The notes: a model not told the origin generated them from the letters alone. A stretch of DNA of 64,000 nucleotides from an uncultured Chthonomonadaceae bacterium (GCA_963817895.1 CAWFQB010000014.1:704001-768000), one strand, 5' to 3'. Shown: positions 13,300-51,377, counted from the stretch's first letter. Numbers and translations are program-made.

Positions 13300-13368
13300 G
13301 AGATACAAGATACGAGATACGAGGTAGTAGAACAGTTGCATTTACTCGTATCTCGTATCTTGTATCTC
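13300..13368. repeat. Perfect 24-bp inverted repeat built from GATACGA/GATACAA heptamers
   Basis: GAGATACAAGATACGAGATACGAG (13300-13323) and its reverse complement (13345-13368). Confidence 0.9.
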
Positions 13369-13383
13369 TTCCCTGGATTTCTC

Positions 13384-14865
13384 ATGCCAAAAATCGTAGG
13401 AATTGATCTCGGCACGACCAACTCGGTCATTGCTGTTATGGAGGGCGCGGAGCCGGTCGTGATTTCCCTTGCCGAAGGGACGCGGCTTTGCCCTTCTGTC
13501 GTCGGCTTCACCCGTACGGGGGAACGCTTGGTCGGGCCGCTTGCCAAACGGCAGGCATTGGCTGCGCCGGAACGCACTATTCGCAGCATCAAGCGTCACA
13601 TGGGTACGGATTACACGGTGGAAATTGACAATCGGCGCATTGACGCCGCAGGAGATTTCCGCCCTGATTTTGCAAAAACTAAAAGCGGACGCGGAAAGCT
13701 ATCTCGGCGAACCCGTTGAAAAGGCCGTGATTACGGTTCCCGCCTATTTTTCGGACGCGCAGCGGCAGGCCACCAAGGACGCGGGTACGATTGCCGGGCT
13801 GGACGTGGTTCGCATACTCAATGAGCCGACGGCTGCCGCGCTCGCATACGGAGCCAATCAAGAGGATGTGCAAAACGTTCTGGTGTGGGATTTGGGCGGC
13901 GGCACGTTCGACGTGTCCCTGCTGGAAGCGGGCGACGGCCTGTTCCATGTCCGCGCGACGAATGGCGATACCGAGTTAGGCGGCGACGATTGGGATTCGC
14001 GCCTGATGGAGTGGCTTGCCGATCAGTTCGCGAAGACGACAAGCCTCAATGTGCGCGGGGATCGCGCCGCCATGCAGCGATTGAAGGAAGCGGCGGAAAA
14101 AGCCAAAATTGAACTGAGCGCCCTGACGCAAACCAATATCAATCTGCCCTTTTTGTCGGTTGGCGCGGACGGCCCGCAGCATCTCGACATAGACCTTACG
14201 CGGGCGCAGATGGAAAAAATTTGCTCTGACCTGCTGGATCGCCTGATTGCGCCCTCCAAACAGGCGCTTGCCGACGCCAAAATGCAGGCCAGAGACATTG
14301 ACCGTATCCTGCTTGTCGGCGGTTCCACGCGAATGCCCGCCGTGCAGGAACTTGCGCGCCGAATGTTCGGTAAAGAACCCTACAAAGGCTTGAATCCCGA
14401 AGAGGCCATCGCGCTTGGCGCAGCCTTGCAGGGCGGCGTTCTGAATGAAGAGGTCACGGATTTACTGCTGCTGGACGTGACCCCGCTTTCGCTTGGCATC
14501 GAAACACTGGGCGGCGAAATCACGCACATCATCAGCCGCAACACTACCGTTCCCACGCAGAGCCGAAAAGTGTTTACAACCGCCAATGACGGGCAAACGA
14601 CGGTCGAGATCAAAGTGTATCAGGGCGAACACCGATTGGCGCGTTACAATAAGTTTCTCGCCAATTTTCAACTGACGGACATTCCCCGTTTGGGACGCGG
14701 CCTGCCCAAAATCGAAGTGGTCTTCGACATAGACGTGAACGGCATCGTCCACGTCACCGCCGTAGAACAAACTACGGGGCGACAGCAGCATATTCAGATC
14801 AACCATGCCATCGGCCTAGCGCGGAAGAGATCGCCCGGTTAAGTCAGGTCGTACAGCAGAAGTGA
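13384..14865 (+). CDS. dnaK: Hsp70/DnaK-family chaperone lacking the C-terminal lid; frameshifts near 13635 and 14820
   Basis: [45 protein letters not shown] and [11 protein letters not shown] motifs. Confidence 0.9.
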
Positions 14866-19843: not shown

Positions 19844-19855
19844 GAGCCTATACTG

Positions 19856-19909
19856 AGTAGCCCTCAACCCCTGACCCCTTCTCCCAAAAAGGCTTGGGAG
19901 AAGGGGAAC
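19856..19909. repeat. Palindromic CCCTCAACCCC...GGGAGAAGGGG REP-like repeat, copy 1
   Basis: Near-identical 54-bp copy at 60877-60930; related inverted copy near 45158-45199. Confidence 0.85.
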
Positions 19910-19953
19910 CTATTGGCATAGACTGATTTAAACGCCTTGCAGGAGAAAATTTT

Positions 19954-21231: not shown

Positions 21232-21316
21232 AGCGCTTTGTTCTCCATAAAGGGGTATTGCTCATGCCCGAACAGGCGCATTTCGGAGACGCGCCTGGGA
21301 TACTGGCGAAAAGTAG

Positions 21317-22135
21317 TCAGCGCCCCATGTAGGGACTATCATCCCATAACGCCAATTGACTTGATGTACCCGGCAGGCTCACATTGCCTTGTTTGTCTAA
21401 CTTATGCTGGTCTGCTATCGCTCCGAACCATTTGCACAGGAGGTCTGCATCCATAACAACACGCCCATAGTGATTCCGCTGAACGCTTAACAATTCTTCA
21501 ATCTCAATGTTACGCCGGTGGTGCAGAATGTACCGGGTGAGCAACGGCCCCATCGTAAAATTAAGGCGTGATGTTGTTAGCAAAGAGCGAACAATGCACA
21601 AAGCGGGGTAAGGATTCGCCTCCAAGTTGATTTCGACAGTCTGATTGAGAAAAGCCTCGAAGAAACCATGAGAGTAGATTGTTCGCTTCCGTTTTTTACC
21701 GCCCAGTTCAACGGCAATGGCTTCGACATTCAAAAAGGTGGTTTGGGGCAGGTCAGCAAAATCAGCATGTCGAACATGGCTTTCTCGGAAAGCCCAGGTA
21801 TCGTTCAGCGTCCACATGTCGAATAGCCAACCTTGATGTTCCATGTGCAAACCGCCAAACCGCGTATCTCGTATGAAGTGCCTTTTCATAGTTTTGCGCA
21901 TGTCGCAAGTGGAAACACCGCCAATGACTACATCCACATCGCGCACTTGCGCTTTCAAACCATTACTCAGCAGATCACGCGCGACGCCGCCGAATATATA
22001 TGCCGACCATTGATTTTCGTAGATGTGACCAAGCACAGACTGCATCGGCTTACGCCTGCGCGTCTCTTTAGTCAGAAAGTCACTGATTCTATGGCGGAGA
22101 ATTTGCTCCTGTTGTTCAATCTTTGCGTCAGCCAT
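21317..22135 (-). CDS. Pol-beta superfamily nucleotidyltransferase (CCA/poly(A) polymerase head-like; candidate HalB-like)
   Basis: YIFGGVARD, RDVDVV (DxD), RFGG, FDMW (third Asp), TTFLNVEAIA and C-terminal QRNHYG; start overlaps the dGTPase stop (ATGGCTGA). Confidence 0.85.
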   Translation of the reverse strand: MADAKIEQQEQILRHRISDFLTKETRRRKPMQSVLGHIYENQWSAYIFGGVARDLLSNGLKAQVRDVDVVIGGVSTCDMRKTMKRHFIRDTRFGGLHMEHQGWLFDMWTLNDTWAFRESHVRHADFADLPQTTFLNVEAIAVELGGKKRKRTIYSHGFFEAFLNQTVEINLEANPYPALCIVRSLLTTSRLNFTMGPLLTRYILHHRRNIEIEELLSVQRNHYGRVVMDADLLCKWFGAIADQHKLDKQGNVSLPGTSSQLALWDDSPYMGR

Positions 22136-23498
22136 TTTTTAGTTGTTTGTGCAATGTACAGGCGAATGTATCCGTCATGCCGCAAACATAATCGGTGAGC
22201 AGCTGCCGTTGACAGTAGATTTTGGGCAGCCCCTCTTTAAGCGCCTCATTGTAAACTTTACGGTAGTTGTTAGACATCATATTGTGAATTTTGCCGGGAA
22301 ATGTTTTCACGCCCCGCCCACCTTCAGCATCTGACGCTCCCTCCCAGAAAATGTCCATCAAATCGTGTATAACCTCCCTGCCCATCACTTCAAGCCGAAG
22401 CGTTTCCTTAGATGTATATACATGCTTCTTCGCAAATTCCTTACAAGCCTCGACAAAGCGAGCGGCCTCACAGTAAGGATCACTAATGAGTTCTTTATGA
22501 TACTCGCCACGCATGATCGTCTCGTAGTAATGCTTGAACGCTTCAATAACGGCAACAACCATCGCGCCTATGCCATTGACGCGGAAATACTGAACGTTTA
22601 CTTCATCATCATTTCCCTTATCCGAAGCAGCCAAACATTTATTTATCATAGGACAGTTATATTGCTTCAATTCCTCTTTGATTGTATTCCAACGTACCAC
22701 ACCTTTCTTGACAGCATCCTCTATATCTACGACAGAGTAGACAATATCATCGCTTGCTTCAACGAGGTAAGTAATCGGGTTACGCGCTTCGCCAGTTCCG
22801 GTTGCGGCACGAATCTCTTCAATTACCCTGTTTTCCGAGGCAAAGTAGCCCGGCTTTTTCTTTTCCTGCTCGGCTGTGATTTTATCCGAAGCGGCAATAT
22901 ACTTGCACACAGCAGAGAGTGTGCCATACGTAAGGTTCAGGCCGAAATAATCCTCCAGAATTTGCAGACGAGCAATTAGGCGCAACGTTTGCGCGTTGCC
23001 TTCAAAATTCCAGAAATCGTTCGCAAGCTGTTCTGAACGATATGTTGCTACAGACGCATTGAATGAGTGTGCAAAATCTCGAACAGGATCAAGACTGAGC
23101 GGATACAATTTATGGAACCAACTGCTAATTGCCTGTTCGCCAGCGTGACCAAAAGGCGGGTTGCCAAGATCATGAAGTAAGCCGCAAGTAGCGGCAATAA
23201 TTGGAATTTCTTTCGCCTGTGATAAAGGTAAACCCTCTTTCTGCATAATCCACTCTGCCGCTTTACCTGACAAATCGCGGGCGACAGTGGACACTTCAAG
23301 CGAATGGGTAAGACGAGTTCTCACGGCATCGTGTGGCTCCAAAGGAAACACCTGCGCTTTGTCTTGTAAGCGACGTACAGGCGTGGAGAAAACAGAACGA
23401 TCATAGTCTCGCTCGAACTCAGACCTGAATTCTCCACTTCGCTTTTGTGTTCCGCGTCGGCGTTCGCTATTTAGAAGTTGGTTCCACTGCATTCTCAT
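22128..23498 (-). CDS. dgt: Deoxyguanosinetriphosphate triphosphohydrolase (HD-domain dNTPase)
   Basis: FERDYDR, RRLQDKAQVF, RTRLTHSLEV, HDLGNPPFGHAGE, FEGNAQTLR, EASDDIVY and DYVCGMTD motifs; GGAG RBS. Confidence 0.95.
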   Translation of the reverse strand: MRMQWNQLLNSERRRGTQKRSGEFRSEFERDYDRSVFSTPVRRLQDKAQVFPLEPHDAVRTRLTHSLEVSTVARDLSGKAAEWIMQKEGLPLSQAKEIPIIAATCGLLHDLGNPPFGHAGEQAISSWFHKLYPLSLDPVRDFAHSFNASVATYRSEQLANDFWNFEGNAQTLRLIARLQILEDYFGLNLTYGTLSAVCKYIAASDKITAEQEKKKPGYFASENRVIEEIRAATGTGEARNPITYLVEASDDIVYSVVDIEDAVKKGVVRWNTIKEELKQYNCPMINKCLAASDKGNDDEVNVQYFRVNGIGAMVVAVIEAFKHYYETIMRGEYHKELISDPYCEAARFVEACKEFAKKHVYTSKETLRLEVMGREVIHDLMDIFWEGASDAEGGRGVKTFPGKIHNMMSNNYRKVYNEALKEGLPKIYCQRQLLTDYVCGMTDTFACTLHKQLKNG

Positions 23499-23594
23499 TG
23501 GCTATTCTCCATCCACAAAGTTACCAAAGCATTATACTTCATTCAGGATACAAGAATGGTTAATTTACTACGCCTTGCTTTACGCCCATAAGCA

Positions 23595-28858: not shown

Positions 28859-30604
28859 ATGAACCGTTATCGGCGCTTTGCGCTTCCTATTCGATTGCTT
28901 GTTTCGTTTGGCTTGTGCGTTGTTCAGGGCGGCGCGTGTCCGGCGCAGACATTTTCGGCGGTCCAGCCTGTTCGGTCGGCGCATGGCATGGTGGCGTCGG
29001 CAAGCGGATTGGCGTCACAGGCGGGCGTGGAAATACTAAAACGGGGCGGAAATGCTGTGGATGCGGCCTGCGCAACCGCGTTCGCGCTTGCCGTGACGTA
29101 CCCGGTCGCGGGCAATCTGGGCGGCGGCGGGTTCATGCTGATACGGCTTGGCGGATGGCCGCGCGGTTGCCATTGATTACCGCGAAACGGCCCCGGCAGC
29201 GGCGACAAGCGGGATGTATCAGGACAAGGCGGGCAACATCATTCCCAATGCGTCGCTTGTCGGCTATCGGGCGTCGGGCGTACCCGGAACCGTTGCCGGG
29301 TTGGAACTGGCGCAGCGCAAGTACGGCAAACTGAAATGGCGGGAGGTGATTGAACCGGCGCGGCGTCTGGCGTCAGAAGGTTTTCCGGTCAGCGCGGCAA
29401 TGGCGTCCGGCCTGCGGGGTGAAAAATCTCTGGCGCAGTTTCCCGAAAGCCGCCGCGTTTTTCTGAAGCAGGGCGCATTTTACCAGAGCCGGGGAAACGT
29501 TCCGGCAGCCGGAACTGGCGGCGACACTGGCGCGTTTGCAGCAGATACGGCGCAAAAGACTTTTACGAGGGACACACGGCGGAACTCATCGCAAAGGCGA
29601 TGCAGCGCGAACGACGGCCTGATTACCCGCGAGGATTTACGACATTACAAAGCGGTCGAGCGCGAACCATTGCGGGGAACCTATCGGGGTTATGAGGTTC
29701 TCACCATGCCGCCGCCGAGTTCGGGCGGCATCGCCCTGCTGGAAATGCTCAACATTCTGGAACCCCATGATCTGGCGAAATGGGGGCATGACGCGCCCGA
29801 AACCAACCACCTGCTGATTGAAGCCATGCGCCGCGCGTTTGCGGACCGGGCGGAGTTTTTGGGCGACCCGGATTTTGTCCGCGTCCCCGCCAAAGCCCTG
29901 ATTGCCAAACCGTATGCGGCGGAAGTTGCCCGCAGCATTGATCGCCGAACACGCCACGCCGAGCGCAGAAATCAAGCACGGTCAGCCTGCCGGTTACGAG
30001 TCGCCGCAAACCACGCATTTTTCGGTTGTGGATGCGGAAGGCAATGCGGTTTCCAACACGTACACGCTCAACATGGCGTATGGCAGCGGCGTGACCGTAA
30101 AGGGCGCGGGCTTTCTGCTCAACGACGAAATGGACGATTTCACCAGCAAGCCGGGCGTTCCCAACGGCTTCGGCTTGATTCAGGGCGCGGCGAACGCGAT
30201 TGCGCCCACATAAGCGCCCTCTCTCCTCCATGACGCCCACCATTCTGGTCAAGAACGGCAAACTGTTTCTGGTAATCGGCAGTCCCGGCGGCCCGACGAT
30301 CATCAACACGGTGTTGCAGGTGATTGTCAACGTCGTGGACCACAACATGAACATCGCGCAGGCCATCGCCGCGCCCCGCCTGCACCACCAATGGCTGCCG
30401 GATCAAGTCCGAGTGGAAACCAACGGCCTGACGCCCGAAACCCGCCGCAAACTGGAACAAATGGGACACGTCTTCGCCAAACGCGCCGGACTGCCCAACG
30501 AGCATTGGGGCGACGCGGAAGGCATACTGGTTGATCCTCTCACCGGCAAGCGCTATGGCGCGTCCGACCCACGTTCCCGCGACGCGGCGGCCGTTGGTTA
30601 TTAA
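28859..30604 (+). CDS. ggt: Gamma-glutamyltransferase; several frameshifts
   Basis: [53 protein letters not shown] and GSPGG spread over several frames. Confidence 0.92.
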
Positions 30605-31906: not shown

Positions 31907-32440
31907 CTACGCCAGCAATTGTTCATGTTCATCAATATGAAGAATTAATTTTGTTTCGCTGGATAGCTGTTGGTACAAAATTTCAATATTGCTATGTGCT
32001 TCATTCTCCCAGTTGTAGAAAAAATTGCGGCATGCTGTATTAAATTTAATGGTAAGTTCGCATATATTCTTGCTCAGAAGCCATTCATTGATAGCACAAT
32101 GAGTGGCAATGTCATTTGAAAGTAATAAAAAATCTTTGTGGCACTGATGCTGATATGCGATTTTGCTCTGGTTGTTCGGCTGATTGTCTAATATAGACAC
32201 GTACTTGAACACGTTGCCTGCGATTACCAAGAGTTCTTTTGCAACCTTGAAGCGTTCTGGGTATATAGTTTTGTAAAAATCCAATTGTCGGGCTTCTCTG
32301 GCAACTTCAATTTCCCGTTCTTTGAGGCGGCTATTCCATTTGTAGTTCAGGTACGGAGCCAGAACTCCACCAATCAAGCCGCCCGTAATCGTTCCCGCAA
32401 TCGTGAAAACGCAGTCCAAACGTCGGGAGGAATTGCCATT
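31907..32440 (-). CDS. Hypothetical AT-rich protein with N-terminal TM anchor (start uncertain, possible frameshift)
   Basis: TIAGTITGGLIGGVLAPYL TM segment followed by a helical region; atypical codon composition. Confidence 0.6.
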   Translation of the reverse strand, partial: NGNSSRRLDCVFTIAGTITGGLIGGVLAPYLNYKWNSRLKEREIEVAREARQLDFYKTIYPERFKVAKELLVIAGNVFKYVSILDNQPNNQSKIAYQHQCHKDFLLLSNDIATHCAINEWLLSKNICELTIKFNTACRNFFYNWENEAHSNIEILYQQLSSETKLILHIDEHEQLLA

Positions 32441-32713
32441 GTTGAATCTCCTGTCAGGATGTAGCAAACGTTGTGAACATCGTACCCCTTCCTGAACAAA
32501 GAGACGAACGAAAGAGTAAGCAGGATACCATAAACAGGCAGGCTAAGAAAGCAAGTACAAAGTCTGGTCCAGTGTGGCGGGCGTCCGGTTCCTGCCCTGA
32601 ACAAGCCACCTGTATATGGCGCGTGGGAAGTGATACCGCGCCGAAAAGTCCACAGGGCTACGAAAAGTACCTGATTTTAAGTTGTTACTAGATTCCAATG
32701 AATATATCTGATA

Positions 32714-32767
32714 TACTTACAGGCAGGTGAACCTAGCAAATTTGCTGAGTTCACCTGCCTGTAAGTA
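32714..32767 (+). promoter_or_regulatory. Long hairpin abutting the RBS of a small peptide gene
   Basis: Perfect 19-bp stem TACTTACAGGCAGGTGAAC / GTTCACCTGCCTGTAAGTA. Confidence 0.7.
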
Positions 32768-32775
32768 AGGGGGTG

Positions 32776-32877
32776 ATGAAGTTGTCCACCCTGGTTAATG
32801 TGATAGCCGTTGTCTCTGGAATTGTGACGGTTATCGCGTTCCTCATGGATCGGTACGACAAGCGTAAGCGCAAGTAA
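32776..32877 (+). CDS. 33-aa hydrophobic peptide, type I toxin/holin-like candidate (not in the ORF track)
   Basis: MKLSTLVNVIAVVSGIVTVIAFLMDRYDKRKRK; RBS AAGGGGGTG; downstream hairpin TTCCCCCGAAGTG...CACTTTGGGGGAA plus T-run. Confidence 0.6.
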   Translation: MKLSTLVNVIAVVSGIVTVIAFLMDRYDKRKRK

Positions 32878-32957
32878 CGGCGCATACGTAAAGTCTAACC
32901 GCTCCGTCTCATTCCCCCGAAGTGCTACCAACACTTTGGGGGAACATCTTTTTATCA

Positions 32958-32993
32958 CTCACTTTTCTGAGTGAGGAAATAATTTATAGATAC
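32958..32993 (+). CRISPR. Solitary CRISPR-repeat-like unit A (36 nt)
   Basis: CTCACTTTTCTGAGTGAGGAAATAATTTATAGATAC: 5' hairpin CTCACT/AGTGAG and 3' end resembling the ATGGAAAC/ATTGAAAC handle; single copy. Confidence 0.4.
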
Positions 32994-33052
32994 CTGCTTG
33001 CAAACTACGTAGTTTGCAATGGATACAGGCCCAAAAAAGAGGGTTCAACCCT

Positions 33053-34685: not shown

Positions 34686-35099
34686 ATGGCGGAAACGAAC
34701 GCGGAAAAAGCAAAGCGTTGGCGGGAAGCAGCCCTTGTCACGTTGAACACGGCGAAACAGCTTCGGAATCAAGCGGACGCGCGTTCCTGCGTCAGCCGCG
34801 CCTACTACGCTGTTTTCCAAATGGTCACTTCCGTATGTATCGCGCATGGCGACTCTACGCAGTTTCCGTCGGGTTGGAACAATCCTTCACATGAACAGTT
34901 GCCTGAGTTGATTTTCAAGAATGGGAACTACTCAATGTCTACCCGACGAACTGTTCGAAGGATACTGAAGGAGATGCGAGTCTTGCGTGAAGACGCGGAT
35001 TATCGCGTCGGGCGAACGGTAGACGCTCAATCTGCCCAAACCGCTTTACAGATGGCTCACGCTATTTTTGAGCGACTGGAGAACCCACATGATTTCTGA
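34686..35099 (+). CDS. HEPN domain protein
   Basis: SRAYYAVF, H in SHEQL, and REDADY motif typical of DUF86/UPF0332-like HEPN proteins. Confidence 0.85.
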   Translation: MAETNAEKAKRWREAALVTLNTAKQLRNQADARSCVSRAYYAVFQMVTSVCIAHGDSTQFPSGWNNPSHEQLPELIFKNGNYSMSTRRTVRRILKEMRVLREDADYRVGRTVDAQSAQTALQMAHAIFERLENPHDF

Positions 35100-48583: not shown

Positions 48584-51377
48584 ATGACTGTAGATACGAT
48601 TGCCGTATTGACAGGTGGGGTTGGCCTGATCGCGTTTCTGGCGTGGTTCTTCTTTGGGAAGCGGGAGAGCAAACGCGCCGAAACAAAGGCCGGGGTTCAG
48701 GAAATCACCATACGGGTAGAAGGAACCTATCAGCCCGATCACATACAGGTACAGGCCAGGGTTCCGGTACGCTTGAAGTTCGACCGTCAGGAAACAGTAG
48801 GATGTTCAGAGCGGGTCGTATTCCCTGATTTTCAGATCAACCGGGAACTGCCTGCCTTTCAAACCACAACCGTAGAGTTTACGCCGGACAAACCCGGCAC
48901 GTATGCGTTCGCCTGCGGTATGAACATGTACCGAGGCCAACTCATCGTAACTCCGGCGGCGCAGCCCGCCACAGTCAGCAACGGCAAGACGGATACGCCC
49001 ACTCCTGCCGTTCCTGCGGGTCAAACGCAACTGTTGCCTGAACGCTGCGACCTGACCATTACAGGGATGCATTGCGCCTCCTGCGTCGGGCGCGTGGAAA
49101 AGGCGATTCAACGAGTGCCGGGGGTTCACGATGTGACCGTGAACCTGCTGGCCGAACGCGCCGCCGTTACCTTCGACCGGAACCAAACTAGGCCGGAAGA
49201 CGTGATTACGGCTGTAAACGAGGCGGGCTACAACGCGAGCATGGCGCATCTGGATCATTTTGAACCGACTTCCGATACCGCGCCGACGCTGCTGACACAT
49301 CATTCGACCGAAGCGCAGGAACTCAGGCGTCGCTTCCTGATTGCGCTGGCGCTGACAATTCCCGTTCTGGTCATGGGAATGGGGCCGCACCTCGGATTGT
49401 TTCCGATGCGCTGGACAATGCAGTCCTGGTGGAACTGGGCGCAATTGATTCTGACAACTCCTGTTTTGTTTTGGGCAGGAAGCGGATTCTTTCGGGGCGC
49501 GTGGGCCGCGCTGAAACAGCGGGCAAGCGACATGAACACCCTGATCGTCGTCGGCACATTCGCCGCCTACGCCTATTCGCTGGCCGTCACGGTTGCGCCT
49601 CGCTTCTTTGCTGTGAAAGGCGTGAACAGCGGCGTGTATTTCGAGACGGCAGCCGTGATCATGACGCTGATTCTGATGGGGCGACTGCTGGAAGCGCGGG
49701 CGAAACGCGGCACGGGAACCGCCATTGAAAAACTGATCGGCTTGCAGCCCAAAACGGCGCGGGTTGTCACAAACGGGCAGGAAGCGGACGTGCCGCTTGC
49801 CGAAGTGCGAGTCGGCGATCGTTTGCTGGTGCGTCCCGGCGAGAAAGTGCCGGTTGACGGCGTACTGGTATCCGGGCAATCGTGGGTGGACGAGAGTATG
49901 CTGACGGGCGAAAGCCTGCCGGTGGAGAAGAAAGAGGGCGCGAACGTGACGGGCGCAACGCTCAATCAGCGCGGCGCGTTTACGATGGAAGCGCAAACGG
50001 GTCGGCAAGCGATACCGTTCTGGCGCAGATCGTGCGACTGGTCGAGCAGGCGCAGGGCAGCCGCGCGCCCATTCAGCGACTGGCGGATGTGATTACCGGT
50101 TATTTCGTTCCCGTCGTCCTGATGCTCGCCGTCGCTACCTTTGTCGGCTGGTATGCTATTGGGGCCGGAACCGAAGTTTTCTGCACGCGCTGCTGGCGTT
50201 TGTTGCCGTTCTGATTATCGCCTGCCCGTGCGCGTTGGGACTGGCAACGCCAACCGCGATTATGGTGGGAACCGGCAGGGGGGCGCAGATGGGCGTTCTC
50301 ATCAAGGACGCCGAAGCGCTGGAAACCCTGCACGGCGTCAAACCGTCGTCCTGGACAAGACCGGAACTATCACTGAAGGCAAGCCCGCGCTTACAGATAT
50401 AATTCCTGCGCCGGGAATTACGGAAACCGAACTGCTGCGATTGGCGGCATCAGTCGAGCGCGGCAGCGAACATCCGCTCGCAAGCGCGATTGTCGCCGCA
50501 GCGCAAAATCGGCACATTCAACTATCGGAAGCTACGTGGTTTCAGGCGATTGCCGGACGCGGCGTAGAAGCGCGGCTAGACGCCCATGACGTACTGATTG
50601 GCAACGTCGCGCTGTTGTGGGAGCGAAACATAGACGCTGCTTTGTTCGCGTCGGAAATGACGCGATTGTCCGGGGAAGGCAAAACGCCGGTGCTTATGGC
50701 GCTGGACGGCAAAGCAATTGGCGTACTTGCGGTTGCCGATCCGATTAAAGCCACAACGCCCGCCGCTATTGCGCGCCTGAAGGCAATGGGTATAAGGTCG
50801 TGATGCTGACGGGCGACAACAAGAACACGGCGGAAGCGGTTGCGCGGCAGGTCGGCATCGATCGCGTGTTGCCGGAAGTCACTGCCCGCGCGCAAGGCGG
50901 AAGAGATTAAGCGATTGCAGTCTGAGGGGCAAGTGGTGGCGATGGTGGGCGACGGCATCAATGACGCGCCCGCGCTGGCGCAGGCGAATGTCGGCATCGC
51001 TATCGGCACGGGAACGGATGTTGCGATTGAAGCGGCGGATGTGGCGCTGATGCGCGGCGACTTGAACGGCGTCGCGGACGCGATCGAACTGTCGCGGGCA
51101 ACCATGCGAAACATTCGGCAGAATCTTGGCTTCGCTTTCGGCTACAATATCGCTGGGCATTCCGATTGCGGCGGGCGTTTTGTACCCGTTCACCGGCTGG
51201 CTGCTGTCTCCCATGATCGCATCAGCGGCAATGGCGATGAGCAGCGTATCGGTCGTAACCAACGCGCTGCGCCTGCGCGGATTTACGCCTTCCGGTTCCA
51301 ATAATGGTCAGCCCATAGCCGCGCAATCTTCGACAACGAAACCGGTAAATACTCGTAAGGTCAAACAGGCGGCATAG
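48584..51377 (+). CDS. copA: Cu(I)-translocating P1B ATPase with fused N-terminal cupredoxin domain and HMA; several frameshifts
   Basis: C...FACGMNM cupredoxin, [34 protein letters not shown] and MxxSS. Confidence 0.92.

What the first reader, a model, noticed from the sequence alone, without database searches (positions are those of the whole stretch)
21317..23498. dGTPase coupled to a Hailong HalB-like nucleotidyltransferase: candidate undescribed anti-phage system
Seen: two frameshift-free ORFs overlap by 8 nt (ATGGCTGA). They form a visibly AT-richer cassette inserted between unrelated ABC-exporter and ankyrin genes. Gene 1 is an HD dGTPase with all motifs intact. Gene 2 (272 aa) has a class II NTase head (GGxxRD, DxD at 66/68, third Asp in FDMW). 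It has TTFLNVEAIA where CCA enzymes have RRDFT, is much shorter than a CCA enzyme, and carries a C-terminal QRNHYG with Tyr223. Established: dGTPases defend against phage by depleting dGTP; E. coli Dgt is allosterically modulated by ssDNA; in Hailong, the NTase HalB makes tyrosine-primed oligo-dA that gates the HalA channel. Inference: the NTase makes an oligo(deoxy)nucleotide guard signal that restrains or triggers the dGTPase, giving a Hailong-like system with a nucleotide-depleting effector and no TM channel. The HalB resemblance rests on recalled motif architecture, not an alignment.
Basis: partly seen in the sequence, partly recalled or inferred. Interest (0 to 1): 0.92.

Follow-up and report, generated by a model that had tools for sequence, protein, structure and literature searches.

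The report
Divergent Clover anti-phage operon
These two genes are a distant member of Clover, an already published bacterial virus-defence system in which one enzyme destroys a DNA building block (dGTP) during infection and the other makes a small nucleotide brake that keeps it off in healthy cells.

Summary
In detail: two intact minus-strand genes, a 456-aa dGTPase and a 272-aa nucleotidyltransferase, overlap by ATGGCTGA in a low-GC patch. The system is not undescribed: it is Clover (CloA + CloB; Yamaguchi et al., PMC12265719; Nature 2026). The dGTPase's best solved relatives are the CloA structures by sequence and fold. The NTase family aligns full-length to an E. coli CloB, D66/D68 on D71/D73 (hhalign 99.6%). 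A dGTPase lies directly upstream in 132 of 140 homologous loci, and the genome has a separate housekeeping dgt. Catalytic residues are intact; 8 of 9 inhibitor-pocket and 7 of 8 activator-pocket residues are kept. Most likely, phage-raised dTTP activates dGTP depletion and CloB-made p3diT restrains it; untested here. Open point: this clade changes base-reading residues (N75T here), so its brake might not be p3diT. The scan noted Clover before in another genome (e1-110798).

The parts
22128..23498 (-). cloA: HD-domain dGTPase effector, 456 aa. Metal/catalytic H65, H109-D110, D250, H118/E121; inhibitor pocket R25, R30, D33, R34, F37, T71, N188, Q303, R306; activator pocket R43, D57, Q179, K264, S409, N411, T442, F445
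   Evidence: families; CloA best by sequence and fold; residue map; tree
21317..22135 (-). cloB: class II-like Pol-beta nucleotidyltransferase, 272 aa. GGVARD 49-54, D66/D68/D106, TWAF 113-116, TTFLN 132-136, Y223
   Evidence: family; homology to E. coli CloB; fold
22128..22135 (-). 8-nt start/stop overlap ATGGCTGA, consistent with translational coupling
   Evidence: an 8-nt start-codon/stop overlap occurs in 111 of 132 adjacent homologous pairs
23507..23536 (-). Likely expression signals: TATAAT at 23531-23536 and GGAG 8 nt before the cloA start
   Evidence: read directly; the consensus scan found no -35/-10 pair here, so this is a lead only
21254..21292 (.). Short dispersed repeat just downstream of cloB; host repeat near the cassette edge, probably not part of the system
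   Evidence: 15 blastn hits in the genome including itself; also matches in both same-genus genomes

Best explanation
A Clover anti-phage operon from a divergent clade, acquired horizontally. CloB makes a 5'-triphosphorylated deoxy-dinucleotide, most likely p3diT (pppT-pT), in uninfected cells. It binds the arginine cage at the CloA dimer interface and keeps the dGTPase off. A phage that inflates the dNTP pool raises dTTP, which binds the neighbouring pocket, overcomes the brake and completes the active site; CloA then hydrolyses dGTP and phage DNA replication stalls. Shown here: gene content, homology of both genes, conserved pairing and coupling, intact catalytic and pocket residues, patchy distribution. 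Taken from the Salmonella and E. coli systems and inferred for this operon: dTTP activation, p3diT identity, toxicity without CloB, phage protection. Membership about 0.95; p3diT as the exact signal about 0.75.
For: CloA structures 9P8S-V are the top hits by sequence (E 4e-83; next family 1e-50) and fold (ranks 1-6, TM 0.85-0.89). E. coli locus L100 serves as reference: 471-aa dGTPase gap-free against CloA (920 bits), operon 2200 bp like the paper's E. coli H5 operon, partner with D71/D73 as in the paper's CloB mutant. Window NTase against it: BLASTP E 4e-14, hhalign 99.6% over 231 columns; against a second E. coli CloB E 7e-24. dGTPase adjacent upstream in 56 of 60 genome loci and 76 of 80 metagenome loci; 5 of the other 8 end too soon to tell. 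Tree: window groups with the reference CloA clade, support 0.991, apart from housekeeping and solo dGTPases. Inhibitor pocket 8 of 9 against 3-6 of 9 in eight control dGTPases. Pairwise identities of the two genes track each other (r 0.91, n 48, permutation maximum 0.29). No clear NTase match in 40 relatives; 2 of 300 phylum genomes match.
Against: No experiment on this operon. Identity to the reference is low (CloA 38%, CloB 20%). N75, which reads the second thymine, is T71 here and N in only 3 of 107 clade members. Y452 is F445; the switch residues N175/Q427 and octamer contacts H263/H292 are not kept, so regulation strength and oligomer may differ. The dTTP pocket does not discriminate: a Listeria housekeeping dGTPase has 7 of 8 too. 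The score is below the cut-offs of NCBIfam's anti-phage dGTPase models, which describe another clade. The window is not a defence island, and 7 of 17 homologous loci had no PADLOC hit nearby. The paper's list of about 650 CloB sequences was not in the held supplement, so inclusion of this clade in it is unchecked.
Confidence: 0.85

Rival explanations
1. Clover architecture and logic, but a different brake: this clade's CloB makes another 5'-triphosphate dinucleotide or short oligomer (not pppT-pT), read by a pocket whose base-reading residues have changed.
For: In the clade the phosphate cage is near-invariant (R29 104/104, R34 96/104, R38 104/104, N181 108/109, R314 113/122) while base readers vary (D37 70/104, N75 3/107, Q311 69/120). 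The CloB motif at the CCA templating position is TTFLN here, TTLMS in the E. coli CloBs.
Against: The window keeps D37, F41 and Q311; only N75 changes, to a hydroxyl residue. The paper found p3diT from a distant Xanthomonas CloB, and a Xanthomonas CloB here has TTFFD, closer to the window's motif, so the motif change alone need not alter the product.
Confidence: 0.18
2. One reading: the NTase primes on Tyr223 and makes oligo-dA that gates the dGTPase, which a phage exonuclease releases.
For: Y223 is conserved in 135 of 136 clade NTases; both systems use a constitutive inhibitory nucleotide.
Against: Both genes are homologous to Clover, whose product has a free 5'-triphosphate and thymine bases. 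The dGTPase keeps the triphosphate-binding arginines that p3diT needs. The tyrosine is missing in three CloB-like proteins that still pair with a CloA. No channel gene is present.
Confidence: 0.04
3. A housekeeping or decayed pair with no defence role: an extra dGTPase for dNTP balance next to an RNA-tailing enzyme.
For: Closest solved folds of the NTase are CCA-adding and poly(A) enzymes (Z 14.1, rmsd 3.7, 215 aligned). The window lacks other defence genes.
Against: A separate, shorter dgt exists in this genome and in 4 of 4 relatives. The NTase lacks the RRD motif and the body/tail length of CCA enzymes and scores far better to CloB. Patchy distribution, low GC and conserved coupling.
Confidence: 0.03

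Closest known systems
Clover (CloA dGTPase + CloB NTase; Yamaguchi et al., bioRxiv PMC12265719; Nature 2026, 652:978 as cited in PMC13434031)
   Same: Same two genes, order and size (about 2.2 kb); homology of both proteins along their length; HD and HE catalytic residues; D-x-D...D triad in register; 8 of 9 p3diT-site and 7 of 8 dTTP-site residues.
   Different: Sister clade to the tested proteobacterial systems (CloA 38%, CloB 20% identity to the E. coli reference). N75T, Y452F, Q127A; N175/Q427 and H263/H292 not kept; a short in-frame gap before the Q311 helix. Relatives come mostly from Planctomycetota, Verrucomicrobiota, Acidobacteriota, Myxococcota and Armatimonadota records; of these the paper names only Myxococcia, plus 'Other'.
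Hailong (HalA channel + HalB NTase; Tan et al. 2025, seen only through reviews PMC13434031 and PMC13276650)
   Same: Two-gene system in which a Pol-beta NTase constitutively makes a deoxynucleotide product that holds a toxic effector off.
   Different: Effector is a soluble dGTPase, not a membrane channel; the trigger in Clover is raised dTTP, not exonuclease cleavage; the product is a triphosphorylated T dinucleotide, not tyrosine-primed oligo-dA. HalB homology was not shown.
Stand-alone anti-phage dGTPase (Tal et al. 2022; SpdGTPase, PDB 9P8W; NF041026)
   Same: HD dGTPase that depletes dGTP.
   Different: Weak match (E 9e-24, N-terminal part only; 199 bits against a 400 cut-off); SpdGTPase is active alone in vitro and has no NTase partner.
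Class II CCA-adding enzymes / bacterial poly(A) polymerase
   Same: Head-and-neck fold (Z 12-14) and GGxxRD...DxD.
   Different: 272 aa, no RRD templating motif, no tRNA-binding body and tail; far below all family cut-offs.

Membership tests
Clover | Two-gene operon: dNTPase followed by NTase | tested here: met
   adjacent in 132 of 140 homologous loci
Clover | dNTPase homologous to CloA with HD motif and HE dyad | tested here: met
   13 of 14 catalytic/substrate residues; clade support 0.991
Clover | NTase homologous to CloB with [DE]h[DE]..h[DE]h site | tested here: met
   the reference is an E. coli CloB identified by its CloA partner, operon length and D71/D73, not the paper's own sequence
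Clover | p3diT pocket (R29, R34, D37, R38, F41, N75, N181, Q311, R314) | tested here: met
   8 of 9, N75 to T; controls 3-6 of 9. T25 lies in an unaligned loop and was not scored
Clover | dTTP activation pocket (R47, D61, Q172, K256, S418, N420, T449, Y452) | tested here: inconclusive
   7 of 8, Y452 to F as in two proteobacterial CloA-like proteins; but a Listeria housekeeping dGTPase also has 7 of 8
Clover | Octameric four-leaf assembly of CloA | not tested
   H263/H292 contacts are not kept, but they also vary among proteobacterial CloA; an octamer is too large for the complex tool
Clover | CloB synthesises p3diT; CloA is dTTP-activated and dGTP-specific; phage protection; toxicity without CloB | not testable with these tools
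   needs biochemistry and plaque assays
Hailong | Partner is a transmembrane ion channel (HalA) | tested here: not met
   the coupled partner is a soluble HD dGTPase; a dGTPase is adjacent in 132 of 140 homologous loci
Hailong | NTase homologous to HalB, with priming tyrosine in register | tested here: inconclusive
   no HalB sequence or structure was in hand to align; whether the libraries hold HalB is unknown
Hailong | Tyrosine-primed oligo-dA product | not testable with these tools
   the homologous CloB makes p3diT
CCA-adding enzyme / PcnB | Family model score above cut-off, RRD motif, about 400 aa | tested here: not met
   16.5 bits against 290 and 12 against 306; TTFLN in place of the RRD motif (motif recalled); 272 aa
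Housekeeping Dgt | Vertically inherited single copy shared with relatives | tested here: not met
   a second, shorter dGTPase on contig C4 has counterparts in 4 of 4 relatives; the window copy falls in the NTase-coupled clade

The most novel reading that the evidence does not exclude
This operon belongs to a large, untested Clover clade that has kept the triphosphate cage but rewired the base-reading residues, and so uses a new nucleotide brake other than p3diT; Clover would then diversify its signals as CBASS does, and the conserved CloB tyrosine (Y223), not mentioned in the preprint text, would have a role in priming or product length. A sister sub-lineage is the stronger candidate: CloB position 54 is Ser only where CloA has lost Q311 (28 of 28; one lineage, not independent events).
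Probability: 0.18. Interest if true: 0.6.

Novelty: new member of a known kind. Interest (0 to 1): 0.2.

Why it matters
As a discovery it matters little: Clover is published with structures and mechanism. Its modest value is as a divergent test case. It extends Clover into phyla the paper does not name, none of the family libraries searched recognises CloB, and the pocket comparison gives a sharp, cheap question: whether p3diT is universal or whether sub-clades make other signals, which would bear on how phages could evade or spoof the brake.

Tried and rejected
Single-protein scan of genome contigs found nothing; the profile scan worked. Viral contigs: 17 pattern matches, none confirmed. Xanthomonas operon DNA found no E. 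coli match; the Billgrantia operon did. HalB did not appear among 19 sequence hits, the Foldseek rows shown or the 50 VIA-align rows; since I cannot tell whether these libraries hold it, this is no evidence either way. A further VIA re-alignment could not be run. No NCBIfam model for CloB or HalB matched any of 116 family members. The ESM Atlas returned mostly unnamed clusters. Empty-site search failed because the flanks are not neighbours in the two same-genus genomes. Promoter, terminator and repeat scans were at chance level. A maximum-likelihood tree run died; FastTree was used. A 1258-aa ORF at L010 looked like a fusion but the dGTPase match covers only its last 480 or so codons; I read the rest as an open GC-rich frame. 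No complex prediction was sent: no protein-protein binding is claimed and a CloA dimer would pass by likeness to solved structures. The Nature version of Clover, the Hailong paper and Nicastro et al. 2023 were not held.

Full report
OBSERVATION. The window holds two intact minus-strand ORFs, 22128-23498 (456 aa) and 21317-22135 (272 aa), overlapping by ATGGCTGA. The stretch is 47.3% GC in a 56.8% genome; 36 of 3420 equal-sized windows are as low. Gene 1 passes TIGR01353 (323 bits, cut-off 152) and hits PADLOC's dGTPase model; gene 2 passes no Pfam, NCBIfam or PADLOC cut-off, with only weak PolyA_pol/CCA/PcnB scores. The neighbours are an ankyrin gene and an ABC-2 permease.

IT IS CLOVER. The first paper search returned Yamaguchi et al. 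(PMC12265719). I read parts 1-3 of 8 of its text (abstract, results, discussion, first methods), further passages and the one held supplement, which gave Extended Data figure labels only; Supplementary Table 1 with the CloB sequences was not in it and could settle whether this clade was already listed. The paper describes more than 650 dNTPase-NTase operons, shows protection against T5-like phages, dTTP-dependent dGTPase activity of CloA, toxicity when CloB is inactivated, and CloB's product p3diT as an allosteric inhibitor. A 2026 review cites the Nature version (PMC13434031, passages). The Nature paper, the Hailong paper and Nicastro et al. 2023 were not held and I have not seen them; Hailong facts come from review passages.

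GENE 1 IS A CloA. The four CloA entries 9P8S-V are the best of 17 PDB sequence hits (E 4e-83; next 1e-50) and ranks 1-6 in Foldseek for a model of pLDDT 91.8 (TM 0.85-0.89); E. coli Dgt follows with similar TM, so fold alone does not decide. A Listeria housekeeping dGTPase is about as similar in identity (37.7%), so I built a tree of 58 sequences and 454 columns. It left out 8 partial dGTPases and the loci where no full ORF was called. The window's protein and its clade group with the E. coli, Xanthomonas, Billgrantia and Phaeobacter NTase-coupled dGTPases at support 0.991; eight controls fall outside. Three Bacillus plasmid dGTPases that also have the NTase partner group with Listeria instead.

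GENE 2 IS A CloB. No CloB structure or model exists in the libraries, so I located a reference. E. coli locus L100 encodes a 471-aa dGTPase that aligns gap-free to CloA (920 bits), in an operon of 2200 bp, the length given for the paper's E. coli H5 operon; its partner carries D71 and D73, the residues mutated in the paper. It is a proxy, not the paper's own sequence. The window's NTase matches it at BLASTP E 4e-14 and a second E. coli CloB at 7e-24. A profile of 116 window-side homologues (116 of 151 sequences in hand) scores the reference 125 bits against at most 29 for solved CCA/poly(A) enzymes, and hhalign gives 99.6% over 231 columns with D66/D68/D106/Y223 on D71/D73/D113/Y228. The model (pLDDT 93.9) is closest to CCA-adding and poly(A) enzymes (Z 14.1, rmsd 3.7, 215 aligned), which places CloB as an offshoot of the class II head-and-neck fold (inference).

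THE PAIR IS A UNIT. A dGTPase lies directly upstream in 56 of 60 genome loci and 76 of 80 metagenome loci (the best 80 of 171 confirmed were kept). Of the other 8, 5 end too soon, 1 has the dGTPase split by an insertion sequence and 2 are solo NTases; one of the 56 is frameshifted. An 8-nt start/stop overlap recurs in 111 of 132 pairs. All 4 of the 8 plasmid hits that I opened show the pair. Identities of the two genes co-vary across 48 loci (r 0.91), which shows joint inheritance, not independent co-evolution. The NTase was not found in 40 relatives apart from one weak hit (E 2e-4, 523-aa frame, not examined) and in 2 of 300 phylum genomes, one with and one without the dGTPase. The genome has a separate shorter dGTPase on contig C4, with counterparts in 4 of 4 relatives.

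CONTEXT. Around 17 of the 33 homologous loci with full flanks, 14 of 127 ORFs hit PADLOC at E below 1e-10, in 10 loci, 7 of them strongly (pAgo with TIR partner, AbiL/PDC-M38, PDC-M68, RmrA, two methyltransferase or R-M loci, PDC-S68); 7 loci had none. In the window 2 of 54 ORFs hit, both housekeeping cross-matches. Plasmid copies lie by Hachiman, DUF262 and abortive-infection genes, and L100 by an integrase at tRNA-Sec. So the family leans to defence and mobile regions, but this copy stands alone. No empty site could be defined.

POCKETS. Mapping the paper's residue numbers through L100: catalytic and substrate residues 13 of 14 (Q127 is A); p3diT site 8 of 9 (N75 is T71) against 3-6 of 9 in eight controls (partner absence seen in annotation or ORF lists for six; two records are unannotated; C-terminal columns of distant controls are less reliable); dTTP site 7 of 8 (Y452 is F445, as in the Xanthomonas and Phaeobacter proteins), but Listeria also has 7 of 8. 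The arginines whose mutation abolished p3diT inhibition (R29, R34, R38) are all present. Across the clade the phosphate cage is near-invariant while base readers vary: D37 70 of 104, N75 3 of 107, Q311 69 of 120.

MECHANISM. Shown for the homologues and inferred here: CloB makes p3diT, which holds CloA off; phage-raised dTTP overcomes it; CloA removes dGTP and replication stalls. The tyrosine-primed oligo-dA detail fits poorly: p3diT has a free 5'-triphosphate, and the dGTPase keeps the cage that binds it. Y223 is nonetheless conserved (135 of 136), also in both E. coli CloBs, missing in three proteobacterial ones, and the word tyrosine does not occur in the preprint; its role is open.

VERDICT. 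New member of a known kind. Membership about 0.95, full mechanism with p3diT about 0.75, interest 0.2. The one live question is whether this clade's signal is p3diT (different signal about 0.18, interest 0.6 if so). The CCA 'RRD' motif and the comparison with CBASS signal diversity are recalled, not from a call.

Noticed in passing
L060:5962-7179: A CloB of 405 aa with an HD domain (Pfam E 1e-8, residues 75-169) inserted between the GGxxRD and DxD motifs, still downstream of a CloA. Single case; a real signal-making plus signal-degrading fusion or an assembly artefact.
   Followed up: partly
L014, L016, L020, L023, L025, L027, L028, L032, L037, L040, L041, L043, L044, L047, L048, L051, L054, L055 and metagenome kin: A sub-lineage in which CloB has Ser in place of the GGxxRD aspartate and CloA has lost Q311 (28 of 28 Ser cases are non-Q311); best candidate for a Clover with another signal.
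   Followed up: partly
L002, L004, L005 (Bacillus plasmids): Their NTase-coupled dGTPases group with Listeria and Enterococcus dGTPases rather than with CloA, with weaker p3diT pockets (4-7 of 9): CloB may have paired with dGTPases more than once.
   Followed up: partly
L035:1963-5989: CloA split by a two-gene insertion sequence, CloB left intact but short; L063 has both genes frameshifted; L008 and L057 carry CloB with no dGTPase.
   Followed up: partly
L096/L097 and L100 (E. coli): 116 of 5426 E. coli genomes match the L096 operon: 108 at 95% or more (the two opened lie between flhB and cheZ) and 8 at 60-80% (the one opened is next to an integrase at tRNA-Sec). CloB is annotated as hypothetical protein.
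   Followed up: partly
window 13336-14842, 28859-30604, 48584-51301: DnaK, gamma-glutamyltranspeptidase and a P-type ATPase are each split over two or three frames; probably assembly indels (genome 81% complete). The Clover genes are unaffected.
   Followed up: no
window 19855-19925: A short dispersed repeat with 167 blastn hits in this genome and many in G002; REP-like, not examined.
   Followed up: no
window 31907-32999: A second low-GC patch (43-47%) with a 186-aa ORF of no Pfam family; a lone HEPN-domain gene lies at 34686-35096.
   Followed up: no
L006:6864-10775: Directly downstream of a Clover pair: TIR-domain partner, short Argonaute and an HNH nuclease, a compact defence island.
   Followed up: no
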